The notes beneath the pieces were generated by a model, which made no database searches, was not told where the DNA came from, and worked only from the letters and a program-made list of their open reading frames with translations. The position numbers and the translations under genes were made by a program. A stretch of 64,000 bases of DNA from positions 32,001 to 96,000 of IMG/VR virus record IMGVR_UViG_3300020577_012633; one strand, written 5' to 3'. The stretch comes from a virus. Its lineage: Duplodnaviria; Caudoviricetes. Position 1 is the first letter of the stretch. Each line of letters starts with the position of its first letter. This document shows positions 1 through 42,452 of the stretch, in pieces.

Positions 1-1
1 T

Positions 2-859
2 ACGCAAGGTTGCGCCAAGAGGCATGTTAGGAAGAAGCGCAGCCCAAACCTTCGGGTCGTTGGCGACTTCCTTTGGAACCAACTCGTGAGGAAGCTGATA
101 TTCCTCAACAATCTTAGCAACAATATTCGCGTTCGTCTGGCCCTTGATCTTGTTTGCTCCTTCGAGGATAGACAAACTCTCAGGAACCTTCTTAGGAAGT
201 TCACCGTCCTTGGTTACATAGTTATAGATCATATTGTGAAGTTCATCACCATGAGCGTGACACTTACGCAAGAGATCTGAGTGAGACCAGGCTGACTTTG
301 CGTTACCTTCCTCGGCTGTACGCTGAGGATACTTGACAACCTGAAGCGCAAGGCGATCAGGAGTCATACCGTTGTACCAGTTAGAGAATGCGTTACGAAG
401 TCCTGAACCCCAGCCACGAAGACCGTCAACATAGTGAGCGAATTGGAAAAGATGAGTACCAATACGCGCAACCTTTGGAAGAGAATCAAGAGCAAGGCGG
501 CGAGTAGGAAGATCTCCCTGAGAAGCACAGATTGCAAGCGCAAAGAGAGCAGGATCGTTCTTTGGAGCGCGACCTGAATCGCTAATCTCAACGATCTTCT
601 GAACGGTACGAGTACCGTTTTCTGCAACGCAATCAACGACATTCTTAGCGTTGTCAAGAGCCATCTTGTGCTGAGTGCAATACATAGTTGCACCATCAGT
701 ACCTAGGATGAGGAAGCGATCTAGGCGATCCCACTTGTCAATTTCATAAACATAACCACCTGCGTTATTCTTCACAGTGCCAGGAGTAGGGGTGGTTTGA
801 GAAGTGACCTTTGGGGTCTTGGTAGTAATCGCTGCTGACGCCTTGCTGAACTTTGCCAT
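2..859 (-). CDS. rsr: Ro60/Rsr TROVE-domain RNA-binding protein (C-terminal part runs off the window start)
   Basis: Not in the ORF track because it is truncated. Manual translation from ATG 859 (RBS AAGGAG): MAKFSK...VKNNAGGYVYEIDKWDRLDRFLILGTDG...EISDSGRAPKNDPALFALAIC...VARIGTHLFQFAHYVDGLRGWGSGLRNAFSNWY...LALQVVKYPQR...WSHSDLLRKCH...VWAALLPNMPLGATLR. These are typical Ro60 motifs. Confidence 0.95.
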   Translation of the reverse strand, partial: MAKFSKASAAITTKTPKVTSQTTPTPGTVKNNAGGYVYEIDKWDRLDRFLILGTDGATMYCTQHKMALDNAKNVVDCVAENGTRTVQKIVEISDSGRAPKNDPALFALAICASQGDLPTRRLALDSLPKVARIGTHLFQFAHYVDGLRGWGSGLRNAFSNWYNGMTPDRLALQVVKYPQRTAEEGNAKSAWSHSDLLRKCHAHGDELHNMIYNYVTKDGELPKKVPESLSILEGANKIKGQTNANIVAKIVEEYQLPHELVPKEVANDPKVWAALLPNMPLGATLR

Positions 860-872
860 ATCAAAACTCCTT

Positions 873-1436
873 CTAATCGACTTCAACAGGTGTTGTTGAA
901 GTATTCAAAACTGCCACCTCTGCTATTGAATTTGCAGATCGAGGTTCAGTATACGACTGAGCCTCATAGTGGTCAAGTATAAAATGATTGATTTCTTCTT
1001 TTGTCGGCCTCGGTGGTCTATTTATGAAATCTTCCACCGTATCCTTGAAAACAAAAATATCTTTTACTCTTACTTCTTTTCTCGGGTCAAATGGAGTAAA
1101 CCATTTTTCCTCAACATTTATTTCCATGTACCAGCTATATTGCCAATTTTCTATCGTAAATTCTCTAGGGTCTAAGAACTTTCTACCAGCTATATGAATA
1201 GCTGTAGCTCTATGAAGACCATCATGAACAAACAAAGCTCCATCTTCAAACCTGACAATCTTGATGAGATCGTCAATCTTGAGCAGTTTTGAAGTCTTTT
1301 CAATTTTCTTTTTAGGGAATATTGAAAGATTATCTTTTGTAAAGATTCCACCACTTTTAACAAAATTAACCATTTCTGGTATTTGTTCTGCGTTGCGCAG
1401 ATAATTTTGCATCGGAATGAGAGAATCTACTAGCAT
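873..1436 (-). CDS. ParB/Srx-like fold protein
   Basis: LFVHDGLHRATA resembles the ParB-N DGxHR motif; ends in TAG just upstream of the rsr RBS. Confidence 0.5.
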   Translation of the reverse strand: MLVDSLIPMQNYLRNAEQIPEMVNFVKSGGIFTKDNLSIFPKKKIEKTSKLLKIDDLIKIVRFEDGALFVHDGLHRATAIHIAGRKFLDPREFTIENWQYSWYMEINVEEKWFTPFDPRKEVRVKDIFVFKDTVEDFINRPPRPTKEEINHFILDHYEAQSYTEPRSANSIAEVAVLNTSTTPVEVD

Positions 1437-1440
1437 TTAA

Positions 1441-1564
1441 TGCGTCCGCCGGGATTCGAACCCGGACTATATCTTGGATAGAGATAACCTTTTCCTATCG
1501 ACCTGTTTTACCAGATGTGTTGTTGGTCAAGGGTTTTATGTGCTAGCCATTACACTACAGACGC
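1441..1564 (-). ncRNA. tRNA-like Y RNA (tRNA scaffold with a Y-type stem in place of the anticodon arm)
   Basis: Acceptor GCGTCTG/CGGACGC-A, D arm GTGT-AATGGCTA-GCAC, T arm CCGGG-TTCGAAT-CCCGG. The central ~70 nt has no anticodon arm but has TTGACC (1525-1530) pairing with GGTCGA (1498-1503), then GGTTATCT. Confidence 0.75.
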
Positions 1565-1575
1565 CTTATTCAATT

Positions 1576-1646
1576 GTCAAAAAGAAAACTCAGGTATGGT
1601 AATAGAAGACGGTTTAACTATGATCAGATAACCGTCTTCAATCGAC
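1576..1646 (-). ncRNA. Y-RNA-like module
   Basis: Terminal GTCGA/TTGAC stem, perfect GAAGACGGTT/AACCGTCTTC helix, GGTTATCT motif, pyrimidine-rich 3' linker. Confidence 0.65.
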
Positions 1647-1660
1647 TGGAATCTTCTTCT

Positions 1661-1695
1661 AAAACGGTTCTTGAAGTTGCCTTCAAAAACCGCTT
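1661..1695 (-). other. long GNRA-capped hairpin (processing site or terminator)
   Basis: AAGCGGTTTTTGAAG-GCAA-CTTCAAGAACCGTTTT. Confidence 0.6.
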
Positions 1696-1955
1696 GAATA
1701 TTTGGTTTACTGCTGTGCTTACTTAGGCCACCAAACAGTACGATGTAAGGGGTTCTCACCCTTTTTTGTCAAATCCTAAGACCTGACTTTGATCGTAAAC
1801 CGCCAAAATGCCACTTTTGACAATACCGTTCAAACCCTGGCTAGAGTCACCCTAGTCACCCGTCTACGACCTGTATAGGTTCAACACTATGCGTGTTTAC
1901 CATCGTTGCCCACTGTCCTTGAGCAATCAAGGACTTTCGAAAACCATCTATTCAA
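1694..1955 (-). ncRNA. unidentified multi-branched structured RNA (~260 nt)
   Basis: Closing stem TTGAATA..TGGTTT / AAACCA..TATTCAA; nested ACGATG/CATCGT and GGTCGTAGAC/GTTTACGATC helices; several local hairpins; no credible ORF. Confidence 0.55.
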
Positions 1956-1957
1956 AT

Positions 1958-2019
1958 GTCAAAGTACCGAATATGTTGTTGAAAAAAGACGTTTTTCAGG
2001 TTAATCTTTTCTCTTCGAC
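1958..2019 (-). ncRNA. Y-RNA-like module
   Basis: GTCGAAG/CTTTGAC terminal stem, GAGAAAAGAT/GTCTTTTTTC helix, GATTAACCT variant motif. Confidence 0.65.
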
Positions 2020-2051
2020 TCGATACAAATGCCTGCAAAGGCCGTCTAAGC

Positions 2052-2150
2052 CTAGGTCAGGAAAAAAGAATCGGAAAAGGTATTAATTGGCGAACGGGTG
2101 CCTTTCGGCGTACTTGCAAATTGTAAGTTAACCGTCCATCCTTCGACCAG
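2052..2150 (-). ncRNA. Y-RNA-like module
   Basis: CTGGTCGAAGG 5' end pairing with CCTGACCTAG, GGACGG/CCGTTC helix, GGTTAACT motif, GCC-GAAA-GGC hairpin, pyrimidine tract. Confidence 0.65.
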
Positions 2151-2206
2151 TTCCGTCTTATTCTATTTTACTGAAAGTTCTTTGGTAGGCGTTTCAGTAT
2201 TTCTTC

Positions 2207-2213
2207 TATCGGC
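2207..2213 (-). promoter_or_regulatory. GCCGATA putative promoter element upstream of the Y-RNA array
   Basis: TCAAG-N15-GCCGATA, similar to sigma28-type promoters; the motif recurs in other intergenic gaps. Confidence 0.5.
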
Positions 2214-2250
2214 AAGAATCAAAAAGAACTTGAATTCTTCCACGAATTTA

Positions 2251-3183
2251 TTATACGGCAGACAAAGAAGGGGAGTCAACAGTCCTCTCTATTTCTTGTG
2301 CTTTTTTGAGCGCAAAATCCTTGGCCTTAAACTCATAATCCAGATCTACATTATAGCCGTAAGTATTTGGAGTATATGTAGGATATTCTGCATGTTTTCT
2401 TGGATTATTTTGACCAGGAAGAGATTCGCAAAAATGAAACAAAGGTTTATAAGAACCCCAAGTCTGAGCGCAAAGCTCAAAAGCTTCTTTTTCTGTGAGT
2501 CCTCCACTATTGCAACGATGGTGCAAATAATCGAATGTTATTGGAATACCAGTAAGACTATGGATATATTCAACTAGATTGCGAGCGTTCCATATTCCTT
2601 TGTCCTCAGTCTCTACCACAAGACGGCTTTTAGCAGCCTCGTCAAGCCTCTCTAAACCATCTTTGAAGCGTTTGGCGATGTCTTTGGGGTCTCCGTTAGA
2701 ACCATTGATATGGATGTTTACAGGCGATTCTGGCGACAATGGAGAGCCAAGCTTAGACATGAACCAGCCATGATGATTCAATTCACGTATCGTGCTATCA
2801 ACTGATTTTTCATTTTTACTCGCAAGAACATTGAATTGGTCTGGATGACAAGAAAGTCTAACATGATTCAGTAAAGCTGCTTCTGCGCAACTAAGAAAAA
2901 GATTATCCAGTTCTTTTACGTTTGGAAGATTTTCCCATTTGATATTTGACTCAGGATGAGTCATAAGCGGGAAGATATCACTACTAACCCGATAGCACCA
3001 TCCATTTGCGATGCAATGAGTTAAAATTTTTCGTATAACTTTCAGATTGTTTTCGTATTTTTCTGAAAGAATAGAAAGAGCTTTATCTTCTAATTGAACG
3101 AATCGAGTCCATGTCATAGTTTGAAAACTATAACCAGACTCTTTTAGACCATTGTGAATGCAACAAAGACCTTTATTACCCAT
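2251..3183 (-). CDS. uvsE: UV-damage endonuclease UvsE/UVDE
   Basis: GLCCI start, YRVSSDIFP, RLSCHPDQFNVLAS, NIHING, LVVETEDKG, ITFDYLHH, PLFHFCES, RKHAEY, EFKAKD; start moved to ATG 3183. Confidence 0.93.
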   Translation of the reverse strand: MGNKGLCCIHNGLKESGYSFQTMTWTRFVQLEDKALSILSEKYENNLKVIRKILTHCIANGWCYRVSSDIFPLMTHPESNIKWENLPNVKELDNLFLSCAEAALLNHVRLSCHPDQFNVLASKNEKSVDSTIRELNHHGWFMSKLGSPLSPESPVNIHINGSNGDPKDIAKRFKDGLERLDEAAKSRLVVETEDKGIWNARNLVEYIHSLTGIPITFDYLHHRCNSGGLTEKEAFELCAQTWGSYKPLFHFCESLPGQNNPRKHAEYPTYTPNTYGYNVDLDYEFKAKDFALKKAQEIERTVDSPSLSAV

Positions 3184-3643
3184 TAGGTTCTTTCTTCTTT
3201 TTAATGCTTTCCATAAGAGAATCATAGGCTTGCAAATCGCTTGCAACCATAGATACAAGTGAATTATACTGTTCTGGAGCCAAATGTTCGAACAGCATTC
3301 GCCAATCTTCACAGGCTCTACTTGTGCCTTCGTATGAAGTTCCACAAGCCCAAACCGCTGTAGAAGCTTGACATGATTTATCAGGTTTTTCAGGCCAAGG
3401 ATAATCAGGGACATGTTTTTTAGCACAAAGATATGCGTTAGCAACATCGTTTTCAAGCGTTGCAAGTCTTGCCTGATCTACGTTAGCGAAATATCCACTA
3501 TTATAAACTGAATTCAAAAGAGAACATTCTTCTAGAGCTTCTCTTTCTGTATCCCATTTATTATCGCTTTGATATGGCCCTTCGCAAAACCATTTATGCC
3601 AAGAAGTTTTAACAACTTTAAATGGACTTGGACCAATAATCAT
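3176..3643 (-). CDS. hypothetical protein
   Basis: 155 aa ORF overlapping both neighbours in an operon-like way. Confidence 0.7.
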   Translation of the reverse strand: MIIGPSPFKVVKTSWHKWFCEGPYQSDNKWDTEREALEECSLLNSVYNSGYFANVDQARLATLENDVANAYLCAKKHVPDYPWPEKPDKSCQASTAVWACGTSYEGTSRACEDWRMLFEHLAPEQYNSLVSMVASDLQAYDSLMESIKKKKEPNG

Positions 3644-4347
3644 TTCGTGCCATTCCTTATTGCTGTTGAACTAAGCCTCAAAAGAGAATCATCAATTGGA
3701 AGACTAGAATCAAACATATTTTTTGGAGTTGCATAATACATATTTTGAATAGTTTCCAAAGAACAGACCTGACCACCAGTGTATCTTTTAGAAACAATGA
3801 AGTCAGCTTGAATACCTTGAACCCCAGCAATGCCGTGATGGTCCACAAGTCGTTGTGCTGTATCAAAACCGATGAAAAATGTAGGACGAATCCAATATGA
3901 AACTAGTCCTGCCTTTTCAAAGAAAAAAGATGCATTAGTAACCCAAACAGGAGCATAAGACTTAAATTGTTCAAGTCTTGCCCTAAGTTCTTCCAGCGAT
4001 AAATATGGCTTTTCTAATCTGTTTATAGATATTTCAAAAACCTTAGTTATTGGTTTTACCAAATGGCTAATACCTTTTAATGAAGTATTAGGATGAATGG
4101 TATCATAAATTTTGTCATAAATAAATTTATGAGCATCATGTAGAGGATTAAAACTTCCAGGAACAACAGCAAAGATTCCATTGTTCATTCCTCTATGACC
4201 CATATTAGGCAAGTCAAAATAAGAAAGAGGATTCTTGACAGAACCATCAGGAAGAACAACAAACGAATCGAGGCGACTGCGACTGCTCGCAATCACCTCA
4301 TAAAAAGATTCTAGCGTATCGTATGACATGGTTTTAGCAGGATGCAA
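3640..4347 (-). CDS. HIGH-superfamily nucleotidyltransferase, NMN/NaMN adenylyltransferase-like
   Basis: PGSFNPLHDAH, FEISIN, FFEKA, IGFDTAQRL, C-terminal LSSTAIR. Confidence 0.8.
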   Translation of the reverse strand: MHPAKTMSYDTLESFYEVIASSRSRLDSFVVLPDGSVKNPLSYFDLPNMGHRGMNNGIFAVVPGSFNPLHDAHKFIYDKIYDTIHPNTSLKGISHLVKPITKVFEISINRLEKPYLSLEELRARLEQFKSYAPVWVTNASFFFEKAGLVSYWIRPTFFIGFDTAQRLVDHHGIAGVQGIQADFIVSKRYTGGQVCSLETIQNMYYATPKNMFDSSLPIDDSLLRLSSTAIRNGTK

Positions 4348-5033: not shown

Positions 5034-6095
5034 TTACTCTACTCCAAAGTATCTCTGGTACAAAGCATCATAGACTCCATTCTCTTTCATCTTCAAAATG
5101 GAGTTGTCAATATCTCTGCGCAAATCACTTCCTTGAGGAAGCGCAATGCCATAAGGCTGTTGGGCGAAAACAGAACCAACAGCAGCAACTTTTCCAGCAC
5201 CAGCATTCTTTGCATAATACTGTAAAGTGGGAGCATCATAAACAATAGCGTCAACTTGACCAGCCATCAACATTTCATAAGCATCATTGATATCAGTAAC
5301 AGCTTTGATATTTGCGCCATATGAATTCAGAACAGGAACACTTGTTGTTCCAGAAACGGTAGCAACATTTTTACCGCGAAGATCCTTCGGTACAGAAAGC
5401 TGATATGTAAAATGGTCAGCAGTCATAGAGGAAGTCATAGACGCTATTGATAGAATGAGTATGAACGTAGTAGAAACAAATCCCACAAGCGTTAATAGTA
5501 TTTGTATAAAACGCATTGCTTTGGATTTTCTTTCTGCAACATCTTTTCCTTTGTAAAAAGCGCATTCTTTTTTAGAAAAAAATTGCTTATGCATCATACT
5601 GTCAATAAATAGCCAAATGAAAATAATAAATGCCAAAGAAAACAAATGAATCCAGGAATTTTCGATGCCTTTTGGAATGTCATTAGTAAAGAATGACTTT
5701 ACAGAATTAAGAACTGTATTAGAATCATTTTCTCGAACCATAATCATTAGACCGGAATTGAAGTATGGAGTCGAAAAATCCATAACTTTATGACGATCGC
5801 TGTTTATGGTAATACTGGACAAAGCAGCATCAGCTTTTTTATCCTTGATTCTATCGAGAAGATCAGGAAAGCTGTCAGTAGAAACAAAATTTGTTTGAAC
5901 TTTGAGATCTTGGGCAATTAGTCTCCAAAGCTCAATATCAAAACCAGAGTATTCTCCATTTGAGTTTTTCACTACAAAAGGATCTGTTTCGTATACTCCA
6001 ACATTTACTGTTCTTACAGGAACCTCTTGAGCTTTTACATTCTCAATAGAAAAAAGCGAAGAGATTGCTAGAACCGCAATACCGAAAATCTTCAT
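5034..6095 (-). CDS. GluR0/iGluR-like protein: split amino-acid-binding domain flanking two TM helices
   Basis: Signal peptide; S1 (GFDIELW, ITINSDRHKVMDFSTPYF); two TM segments; S2 (DLRGKNVATVSGTTS, VDAIVYDAP, YGIALPQGS). Confidence 0.85.
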   Translation of the reverse strand: MKIFGIAVLAISSLFSIENVKAQEVPVRTVNVGVYETDPFVVKNSNGEYSGFDIELWRLIAQDLKVQTNFVSTDSFPDLLDRIKDKKADAALSSITINSDRHKVMDFSTPYFNSGLMIMVRENDSNTVLNSVKSFFTNDIPKGIENSWIHLFSLAFIIFIWLFIDSMMHKQFFSKKECAFYKGKDVAERKSKAMRFIQILLTLVGFVSTTFILILSIASMTSSMTADHFTYQLSVPKDLRGKNVATVSGTTSVPVLNSYGANIKAVTDINDAYEMLMAGQVDAIVYDAPTLQYYAKNAGAGKVAAVGSVFAQQPYGIALPQGSDLRRDIDNSILKMKENGVYDALYQRYFGVE

Positions 6096-42359: not shown

Positions 42360-42373
42360 TTTAACCTTTCAAA

Positions 42374-42448
42374 TGCCCTCGGCGGGACTCGAACCCACAA
42401 CTCTCAGAATTTTAGAGATTCCGGTTCTGCCAATTGAACTACGAGAGC
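42374..42448 (-). tRNA. amber suppressor tRNA (anticodon CTA)
   Basis: GCTCTCG/CGAGGGC-A, D arm GTTC-AATTGGCA-GAAC, anticodon arm GGAAT-CTCTAAA-ATTCT, T arm GTGGG-TTCGAGT-CCCGC. Confidence 0.9.
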
Positions 42449-42452
42449 AATA

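What the first reader, a model, noticed from the sequence alone, without database searches (positions are those of the whole stretch)
2..2150. Ro60 gene preceded by an array of at least four Y-RNA-like modules
Seen: a Ro60/TROVE ORF (2-859, absent from the ORF track) and, upstream on the same strand, four spaced copies of a GTCGA...GRTTAWCY motif (near 2150, 2019, 1646 and 1503). Each has a partner YTGAC able to close a stem, plus a second helix. The copies differ in sequence but keep the pairing. Established: Ro60 binds a GUC(C)GA/UUGAC-type stem in Y RNAs; human Y1 has GGUCCGAAGG..GUUAUCU; bacterial rsr genes are flanked by Y RNA genes, usually one or two. Inference: this phage expresses a set of different Y RNAs sharing a Ro-binding stem but with different effector ends, making several distinct Ro60 RNPs from one transcript.
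Basis: partly seen in the sequence, partly recalled or inferred. Interest (0 to 1): 0.85.

Follow-up and report, generated by a model that had tools for sequence, protein, structure and literature searches.

The report
Phage Ro60 gene with Y-RNA array
A large freshwater phage carries, just upstream of its Ro60 RNA-binding protein gene, four small RNA genes that share the docking "handle" of bacterial Y RNAs. One of them is built in normal tRNA gene order, a layout I did not find described in the papers I could search.

Summary
A TROVE/Ro60 gene lies at window 1-859 on the minus strand. Upstream on the same strand are four copies of GTCGA-N8-9-GRTTAWC, against none in shuffled sequence. The motif is the published YrlA 5' signature (GNCGAAN0-1G plus YUAY).

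Comparison with related phage contigs shows one shared handle. It consists of stem P1, an internal loop (CGAW opposite AACAACAUA), stem P2, then UUAWC. Compensatory changes support it in all four modules.

- **Modules A-C** are simple Y RNAs of the YrlB/Yrl type.
- **Module D (1441-1564)** is a YrlA in tRNA gene order. It has an open 7-bp acceptor stem, D and T arms, and the Ro handle as a capped arm in the anticodon position.
- **Spread of the D design:** a model built from D-type elements finds it beside Ro60 in about 20 phage contigs and 12 times beside bacterial Ro60 genes. A second copy lies in this phage's tRNA array.
- **RNA M:** an unidentified structured RNA of about 290 nt sits between B and C.

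Y RNAs next to phage Ro60 are known, and three or more modules are common in phage Ro60 loci. The tRNA-order form is a new variant relative to the literature I could search. This scan has already noted it on other DNA. Expression and Ro60 binding remain untested.

The parts
1..859 (-). 5' part of the Ro60 (TROVE + vWA) gene. ATG at 859-857, Shine-Dalgarno AAGGAG at 872-867. The gene runs off the window; the full product is 546 aa.
   Evidence: Pfam TROVE; full ORF in L001; PDB 9NEN/2NVO/1YVP at E about 1e-113; PHROG 850 RNA-binding protein
873..1436 (-). 187-aa ORF between module D and Ro60, with a DGLHR motif. Possibly a ParB-N-like fold. It has no Shine-Dalgarno sequence and starts 4 nt after the 3' end of module D. 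It is conserved in L053, L057, L058 and L067 and absent from L054.
   Evidence: no Pfam or PHROG hit; ParB-like clusters in the atlas are a lead only
1441..1564 (-). Module D, a YrlA-type Y RNA in tRNA gene order. Acceptor 1564-1558 pairs with 1448-1442. D arm 1555-1540. P2 strand 1532-1525. AACAACAC 1524-1517. Capped P1 hairpin 1516-1501. CGAUA 1500-1496. P2 strand 1495-1488. UUAUC begins a V hairpin. T arm 1465-1449.
   Evidence: Rfam tRNA 43 bits with a 65-nt replacement of the anticodon arm; ARAGORN makes no call; covariation; model R1 scores 111.7 bits
1577..1660 (-). Module C, a simple Y-like RNA. It has a 12-bp P1 (1660-1649 with 1588-1577), a CGAUU loop, a 10-bp P2 hairpin, and a UAUUACCAUACC strand.
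   Evidence: 13 of 25 pairs with changes on both sides in 3 sequences
1661..1946 (-). RNA M, an unidentified structured RNA. The closing helix pairs 1946-1941 with 1708-1703. It ends in a terminator-like hairpin at 1694-1665 followed by UUUU at 1664-1661. It is not a standard Y handle.
   Evidence: 70 predicted pairs, 18 compensatory, in the two-sequence alignment with L058; no Rfam hit; no other homologue found
1964..2026 (-). Module B, a simple Y-like RNA. P1 pairs 2026-2018 with 1974-1964. It has GUCGAAG, a 9-10-bp P2 hairpin whose loop starts UUAAC, and a CAACAACAUA strand.
   Evidence: 12 of 20 pairs with changes on both sides in 5 sequences
2072..2155 (-). Module A, a Y-like RNA. P1 pairs 2155-2151 with 2076-2072. 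It has GGUCGAAGG, a P2 stem, and a distal three-way junction that includes a conserved tetraloop hairpin (GCC-GAAA-GGC).
   Evidence: 8 of 17 pairs with changes on both sides in 6 sequences
2182..2279 (-). Promoter and leader region. A sigma-70-like TTGACT-18-TATAAT lies at 2279-2250. Three blocks are conserved in relatives: TTCAAGTT (2234-2227), GCCGATAGA (2213-2205) and CGCCTACCAA (2191-2182).
   Evidence: function inferred only

Best explanation
The stretch 1441-2279 (minus strand) is a battery of non-coding RNA genes that leads the phage's Ro60 operon.

Four of the RNAs (A, B, C, D) are Y RNAs of the bacterial YrlA/YrlB kind. Each presents the same Ro60-docking handle: stem P1, an internal loop with (G)NCGAW on the 5' side and AACAACAUA on the 3' side, stem P2, then UUAWC. 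Beyond P2 each carries a different distal domain.

Module D carries a complete tRNA-like L-shape in ordinary tRNA gene order, with the handle as a capped arm where the anticodon arm would be.

Inferred mechanism:
- The RNAs are made as precursors from a promoter at the end of uvdE.
- They are cut apart by host tRNA and RNA processing enzymes. RNase P would cut at the 5' end of D, which would also free the 3' end of C.
- Each RNA is then bound by phage Ro60 through the handle. The distal domains would gate the Ro60 ring or tether it to different partners, such as PNPase or tRNA-binding enzymes.

Shown here: motif, structures, conservation and linkage to Ro60. Inferred: transcription, processing, Ro60 binding and tethering.
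For: - Four motif copies against 0 expected.
- The motif matches the published YrlA features GNCGAAN0-1G and YUAY (PMC4201824).
- The published mycobacteriophage ET08 locus carries the same handle three times.
- The same motif lies only on the Ro60 strand upstream of Ro60 in related phage contigs: 136 hits on that strand against 3 on the other, in 64 loci.
- P1 and P2 are kept through compensatory changes in A, B and C and in D.
- Thermus phage phiLo Ro60 binds two upstream RNAs of the same stem / CGAA-bulge / stem design in vitro (PMC12135203).
- D scores 43 bits on Rfam tRNA.
- Model R1 finds 32 D-type elements in 26 phage Ro60 loci. Of all cells, 90% are paired, and no shuffle of 500 reaches that. 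The acceptor stem is 96.8% paired, with all 7 pairs covarying.
- 12 more D-type elements lie beside bacterial Ro60 genes, with the acceptor stem 100% paired.
- A second copy lies in this phage's own tRNA array.
- Five D-type elements (four independent) encode CCA directly after the discriminator, against about 0.7 expected by chance.
- M. smegmatis YrlA is cut by RNase P and receives CCA in vivo (PMC4201824).
- One 201-nt contig from a wastewater metatranscriptome is identical to window 1612-1812. This is a weak hint only.
Against: - There is no direct evidence of discrete small RNAs, of processing, or of Ro60 binding.
- Modules C and D read GUCGAU rather than GNCGAA.
- Rfam YrlA (RF02553) and Y_RNA give no match in the array. 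The published ET08 YrlA also fails RF02553's cut-off, at 37 bits against 69.
- A terminator-like hairpin after M argues against one simple transcript.
- The metatranscriptome contig could come from DNA in the library.
Confidence: 0.8

Rival explanations
1. The modules are not separate small RNAs. They are a structured 5' leader of the Ro60 operon, and Ro60 binds its own leader handles to autoregulate translation or mRNA stability.
For: All modules lie on the operon strand, with gaps of only a few nt down to the first ORF. That ORF has no Shine-Dalgarno sequence and starts 4 nt after D. No small-RNA ends were observed.
Against: - Four more handle-bearing modules sit 75-84 kb away in the tRNA array, far from Ro60.
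- D-type elements also lie downstream of bacterial Ro60 genes.
- Module content varies among close relatives while the operon stays the same.
- Known YrlA and YrlB are stable RNAs (PMC4201824).
Confidence: 0.1
2. Module D is a real decoding tRNA gene interrupted by an intron that happens to look like a Y RNA.
For: Rfam tRNA 43 bits; a perfect 7-bp acceptor stem and D and T arms.
Against: - No anticodon stem-loop remains, and ARAGORN makes no call.
- The hairpin after UUAUC changes register and loop size among relatives.
- The insert is the conserved Ro handle with its own covariation. It is found beside Ro60 in over 30 elements.
- The 65-nt insert is far smaller than the group I introns known in bacterial tRNA genes (my own knowledge).
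Confidence: 0.03
3. The repeats are protein-binding DNA sites or chance repeats, such as promoters, operators or recombination sites, and not RNA.
For: TTGACA-like hexamers follow B and C, and a promoter-like site lies upstream.
Against: Compensatory changes on both sides of long helices and strict strand bias are signs of RNA structure, not of DNA sites.
Confidence: 0.02

Closest known systems
YrlA (Rfam RF02553; S. Typhimurium, M. smegmatis, mycobacteriophage ET08; Chen et al. 2014, PMC4201824; structure in Wang et al. 2018, 10.1101/312249)
   Same: It is linked to Ro60 on the same strand. It shares the 5' GNCGA...YUAY signature, the handle on the anticodon side of a tRNA-like L-shape, D and T arms with tRNA-invariant nucleotides, and a V hairpin.
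   Different: Published YrlA runs T arm, closed acceptor stem-loop, D arm, with its ends in the handle, so it is circularly permuted relative to tRNA. Module D runs D arm, capped handle, T arm, with a free 7-bp acceptor stem. It gives no RF02553 match.
YrlB (Salmonella, M. smegmatis) and Yrl1/Yrl2 of Thermus phage phiLo (PMC12135203)
   Same: These are small RNAs upstream of Ro60 with a terminal stem, a CGAA-bearing internal loop and an inner stem. The phiLo RNAs were shown to bind phage Ro60 and PNPase in vitro. Modules A-C have this design.
   Different: Four such handles lie beside Ro60 here, and at least eight in the genome fragment, rather than two. There is no sequence similarity outside the handle. 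Binding was not tested.
Deinococcus radiodurans Yrn1 and metazoan Y RNAs (Rfam RF00019)
   Same: They are Ro60 partners with a modular design of a handle plus an effector domain. Yrn1 also has a T arm.
   Different: In those RNAs a two-stranded bulged helix (GGUCCGA/UUGACC) formed by the RNA ends is the Ro site. In Yrn1 that helix takes the acceptor position. Here that helix is not conserved and there is no Rfam match.
Circularly permuted tRNA genes of algae and archaea (discussed in 10.1101/312249)
   Same: They show that tRNA-shaped RNAs can exist in two gene orders.
   Different: Those are precursors of decoding tRNAs. Here both orders exist for a non-decoding Ro60 partner. This genome has the canonical order at about G000:C1:115860-116010 and the tRNA order twice.

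Membership tests
YrlA (RF02553; Chen 2014) | Encoded within 4 kb of a Ro60 orthologue on the same strand | tested here: met
   Modules lie 582-1300 nt upstream of the Ro60 ATG on the minus strand.
YrlA (RF02553; Chen 2014) | GNCGAAN0-1G near the 5' side of the handle, with YUAY about 15 nt downstream | tested here: inconclusive
   A and B read GUCGAAG(G). C and D read GUCGAU, one base off. UUAU is present in C and D, UUAA in A and B.
YrlA (RF02553; Chen 2014) | tRNA-like D and T arms with invariant tRNA nucleotides | tested here: met
   Module D only: Rfam tRNA 43 bits. U8, A14, GG in the D loop and a UUCGAAU T loop are present. Both arms are 100% paired with covariation. A-C lack them.
YrlA (RF02553; Chen 2014) | Order T arm, closed acceptor stem-loop, D arm, with the RNA ends in the handle | tested here: not met
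   D has the order acceptor-5', D arm, handle, T arm, acceptor-3'. The window holds only one D arm and one T arm in this region, so the canonical order is impossible.
YrlA (RF02553; Chen 2014) | Score at or above the Rfam gathering cut-off (69 bits) | tested here: not met
   No match in the array at E<=10. This is a weak test: the published ET08 YrlA scores only 37.4 bits.
Y RNA in general | Bound by Ro60 | not testable with these tools
   Needs EMSA, RIP or a solved complex.
tRNA (RF00005) | Cloverleaf with a 5-bp anticodon stem and a 7-nt loop | tested here: not met
   A 65-nt handle replaces the 13 model positions of the anticodon arm. ARAGORN makes no call.
Simple Y RNAs (YrlB; phiLo Yrl1/2) | Terminal stem, internal loop with CGAA, inner stem | tested here: met
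   Consensus folds with compensatory changes for A, B and C.
Metazoan/Deinococcus-type Y RNA (RF00019) | Conserved bulged helix GGUC(C)GA/UUGACC | tested here: not met
   56.7% paired against 53.9% in shuffles; no Rfam hit.
Ro60/TROVE protein | TROVE HEAT-repeat ring plus vWA domain, full length | tested here: met
   PF05731 and PF25045; 546 aa; E about 1e-113 to 2NVO, 1YVP and 9NEN over nearly the whole length.

The most novel reading that the evidence does not exclude
The tRNA-order Y RNA (module D and its copy in the tRNA array) is matured like a tRNA by RNase P, 3' trimming and CCA addition. This yields a Ro60-bound RNA with a free, tRNA-like acceptor end that engages tRNA-specific proteins such as synthetases, EF-Tu, repair enzymes or host anticodon-nuclease defences. 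The phage would then use a panel of eight or more Y RNAs to point Ro60, and perhaps PNPase, at different targets during infection. In evolutionary terms this form would be the missing link between a tRNA and the permuted YrlA.
Probability: 0.2. Interest if true: 0.8.

Novelty: new variant of a known kind. Interest (0 to 1): 0.6.

Why it matters
Ro60 and Y RNAs are conserved from bacteria to humans, yet the purpose of the tRNA-like domain of bacterial Y RNAs is unknown.

A natural version with a free acceptor end opens direct tests: is it processed, does it receive CCA, is it charged? It occurs in many phages and bacteria and sits in a tRNA operon in this very phage.

The wide module repertoire (at least eight handles in 123 kb) suggests that phages diversify Ro60 particles much more than the one or two Y RNAs studied so far. 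The same locus also holds an unclassified structured RNA of about 290 nt.

Tried and rejected
- **Rfam.** At gathering and at E<=10, only tRNA matched module D. There was no Y_RNA or YrlA match.
It is not conserved.
- **DNA pattern CCTTGACC..GGTCGA..GGTTA in viral contigs.** It gave 50 hits. Apart from the known relative, those inspected (L007, L034, L042, L043) looked like chance matches in coding sequence.
- **Homologues of RNA M.** nhmmer over all loci and a 25-nt pattern scan of viral contigs found only L058's contig.
- **Metagenome scan with a leader plus module A pattern.** It returned only 4 loci, one of them new (L134).
- **blastn of window 1-4000 against GenBank phages.** The only match was a short Ro60 stretch in Sinorhizobium phage Phosso.
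- **Pfam and PHROGs for the 187-aa ORF and two upstream ORFs.** Nothing significant.
- **Reads.** The runs are contigs only. Apart from one RNA-library contig (1612-1812), the rest of 1-2400 had no near-identical RNA cover, and that absence is not evidence.
- **Some R1 hits are not true tRNA-order elements.** L096 is one: the D arm of one canonical YrlA and the T arm of the next are read together.
The closest Ro60 relatives (86%, and 75-78% from ENA/Logan) could therefore not be fetched.
Full report
**Setting.** The window is bases 32001-96000 of a 123-kb IMG/VR virus record that CheckV rates 24% complete, so it is probably a jumbo phage. DNA runs that hold the stretch come from river and aquifer metagenomes. 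On the minus strand the order is: uvdE (UV endonuclease, Pfam E=8.7e-36, stop at 2251), an 810-nt non-coding stretch, a 187-aa ORF (1436-873), and Ro60 (ATG at 859, running off the window). The whole Ro60 protein is 546 aa with TROVE and vWA domains. It matches human, Deinococcus and Xenopus Ro60 structures at E about 1e-113.

**Observation.** GTCGA-N8-9-GRTTAWC occurs four times in 64 kb, all on the minus strand, at 2147, 2019, 1646 and 1502. None occurred in 100 shuffles. This part of the finding is confirmed.

**What the motif is.** Chen et al. 2014 define YrlA by a 5' GNCGAAN0-1G, and by a YUAY about 15 nt downstream that begins the V arm (PMC4201824). The repeat is exactly this pair of features. 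The published mycobacteriophage ET08 locus shows the same arrangement three times upstream of its Ro gene: one canonical YrlA flanked by two simple modules.

**Conservation.**
- A profile of Ro60 relatives fetched 79 phage loci.
- The strict motif occurs only on the Ro60 strand upstream of the gene. Counts are L053 4, L054/L055 3, L057 3, L058 2, L059 5 and L087 5.
- A looser form gives 136 hits on the Ro60 strand against 3 on the other strand in the 2 kb upstream of 64 loci.
- Copies per locus are distributed as 0:17, 1:8, 2:11, 3:13, 4:9, 5:5 and 6:1.
- Arrays are therefore common in phages, although the papers I read describe one to three RNAs.

**Common architecture.** Alignments with the closest relatives (Ro60 identity 62-78%) give the same fold for every module. 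The closing stem P1 has a 3' end that overlaps the G(G)U of the motif. An internal loop carries CGAW(N) on the 5' side and AACAACAUA-like sequence on the 3' side. Stem P2 follows, then UUAWC.
- Module A: 8 of 17 pairs changed on both sides.
- Module B: 12 of 20.
- Module C: 13 of 25, with three sequences.

**Module D.**
- Rfam tRNA matches 1441-1564 at 43 bits, with 65 nt in place of the anticodon arm. ARAGORN does not call it.
- Reading 5' to 3', it has a 7-bp acceptor strand, U8, a D arm, a P2 strand, AACAACAC, a capped P1 hairpin, CGAUA, the other P2 strand, UUAUC starting a V hairpin, a T arm (UUCGAAU loop), the acceptor strand, and A73.
- Six sequences gave 89% paired cells and 15 pairs with double changes, and no shuffle of 500 did as well.
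- A covariance model (R1) found 32 long elements in 26 phage Ro60 loci, all on the Ro60 strand. Paired cells were: acceptor 96.8% (7 of 7 pairs covary), D and T arms 100%, P1 99%, P2 86%.
- 25 elements have 7 of 7 acceptor pairs. A few low scorers are false, for example L096, where the D arm of one canonical YrlA is read with the T arm of the next.
- Beside bacterial Ro60 genes the model found 12 more long elements, with 100% acceptor pairing. They come from Polyangia, a Deinococcaceae MAG, Verrucomicrobiota and a Patescibacteria MAG.
- Five elements (four independent) encode CCA right after the discriminator.

**Relation to published YrlA.** Published YrlA has the order T arm, closed acceptor loop, D arm, and is described as resembling a circularly permuted tRNA (10.1101/312249). 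Module D has the same parts in un-permuted tRNA order. I found no description of this form in three full-text searches. Earlier notes of this scan report the same design on other DNA.

**More modules in the same genome.** Outside the window, on the same strand, there are four further modules.
- A second tRNA-order element lies at G000:C1:108506-108627, directly after tRNA-Lys (R1 85.8 bits).
- Two handle-type modules without tRNA arms lie among tRNA genes at about C1:111.5 kb (with a large distal insert) and 114.1 kb. The latter sits directly in front of tRNA-Ala.
- A canonical-order YrlA lies at about C1:115.9-116.0 kb.
- The genome fragment therefore holds at least eight handles and both gene orders.

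**Other elements of the stretch.**
- *RNA M.* Between B and C lies a structured RNA of about 290 nt (1946-1661), shared only with L058. The two-sequence alignment gives 70 predicted pairs, 18 of them compensatory. It ends in a strong hairpin followed by UUUU. It has a CGAAA next to its closing helix but lacks P2, UUAWC and the ACAACAUA strand, so I do not file it as a Y RNA. No Rfam family matches.
- *Promoter and leader.* A sigma-70-like promoter (11 of 12 matches) overlaps the uvdE stop. Three leader blocks are conserved in relatives.
- *Linker.* An AU-rich linker, UGAAUAR, precedes both M and D in the window and precedes D in relatives.
- *Variable content.* Module content differs among relatives. 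The window has A-B-M-C-D, L053 has A-B-C-D, L054 has A, a long B, C and D, L057 has A-B-D, L058 has A-B-M, and L067 has A-B.

**Expression.** The only RNA-library signal is one 201-nt contig from a wastewater metatranscriptome, identical to 1612-1812. It is a weak hint and could come from DNA.

**Mechanism.**
- Shown: a conserved, covarying handle linked to Ro60, with variable distal domains.
- Inferred: transcription from the uvdE-proximal promoter, partial termination after M, and RNase P cleavage at the 5' end of D, as for M. smegmatis YrlA. Also inferred are Ro60 binding through the handle, and gating or tethering of Ro60 to different partners by the distal domains.

**Verdict.** This is a real Y-RNA array. 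The tRNA-order YrlA and RNA M are the new parts.

Noticed in passing
window 1661-1946 (-): RNA M, a structured RNA of about 290 nt between modules B and C. It is shared only with L058 (18 compensatory pairs), matches no Rfam family, and ends in a terminator-like hairpin.
   Followed up: partly
G000:C1:108506-108627, about 111476, about 114064 and about 115860-116010 (outside the window, same strand): Four more Y-handle modules lie among the phage's tRNA genes. They include a second tRNA-order YrlA directly after tRNA-Lys and a canonical-order YrlA.
   Followed up: partly
window 42373-42449 (-): A tRNA with anticodon CUA, which ARAGORN labels 'tRNA-Pyl'. This is an amber-suppressor-type tRNA and might point to TAG recoding in this phage.
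   Followed up: no
window 2251-3465 (-): A UvdE UV-damage endonuclease gene lies directly upstream of the Y-RNA array and Ro60. Bacterial Ro60 is linked to survival after UV exposure (PMC12135203 introduction), so the pairing may be functional. It is conserved in L053 and L054.
   Followed up: no
window 873-1436 (-): The 187-aa ORF with a DGLHR motif (ParB-N-like lead) has no Shine-Dalgarno sequence and begins 4 nt after the 3' end of module D. Its N-terminus is conserved in relatives. 3' processing of the tRNA-like RNA might create a near-leaderless mRNA.
   Followed up: partly
L134 (FRDC01001772.1), reverse strand about 5220-5900: In a relative, the D-type module loses its recognisable T arm after the handle and is followed by an HNH endonuclease ORF. 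This may be a mobile-element insertion into the Y-RNA gene.
   Followed up: no
window 1951-1964 and 1565-1580 (-): A repeated linker, TTGACAWTTGAATAR, follows modules B and C and precedes M and D. The UGAAUAA part precedes the 5' end of D in all relatives. It may be a processing signal.
   Followed up: no
L001 2-775 (-), i.e. downstream of Ro60 and outside the window: A LAGLIDADG homing-endonuclease-like ORF (Pfam E=8e-11) follows the Ro60 gene.
   Followed up: no
L096/L125 3620-3900: Two tandem canonical YrlAs have acceptor and P2 strands that can also cross-pair: the D arm of the first with the T arm of the second (6 of 7 and 7 of 8 pairs). This is a possible route between the two gene orders.
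   Followed up: partly
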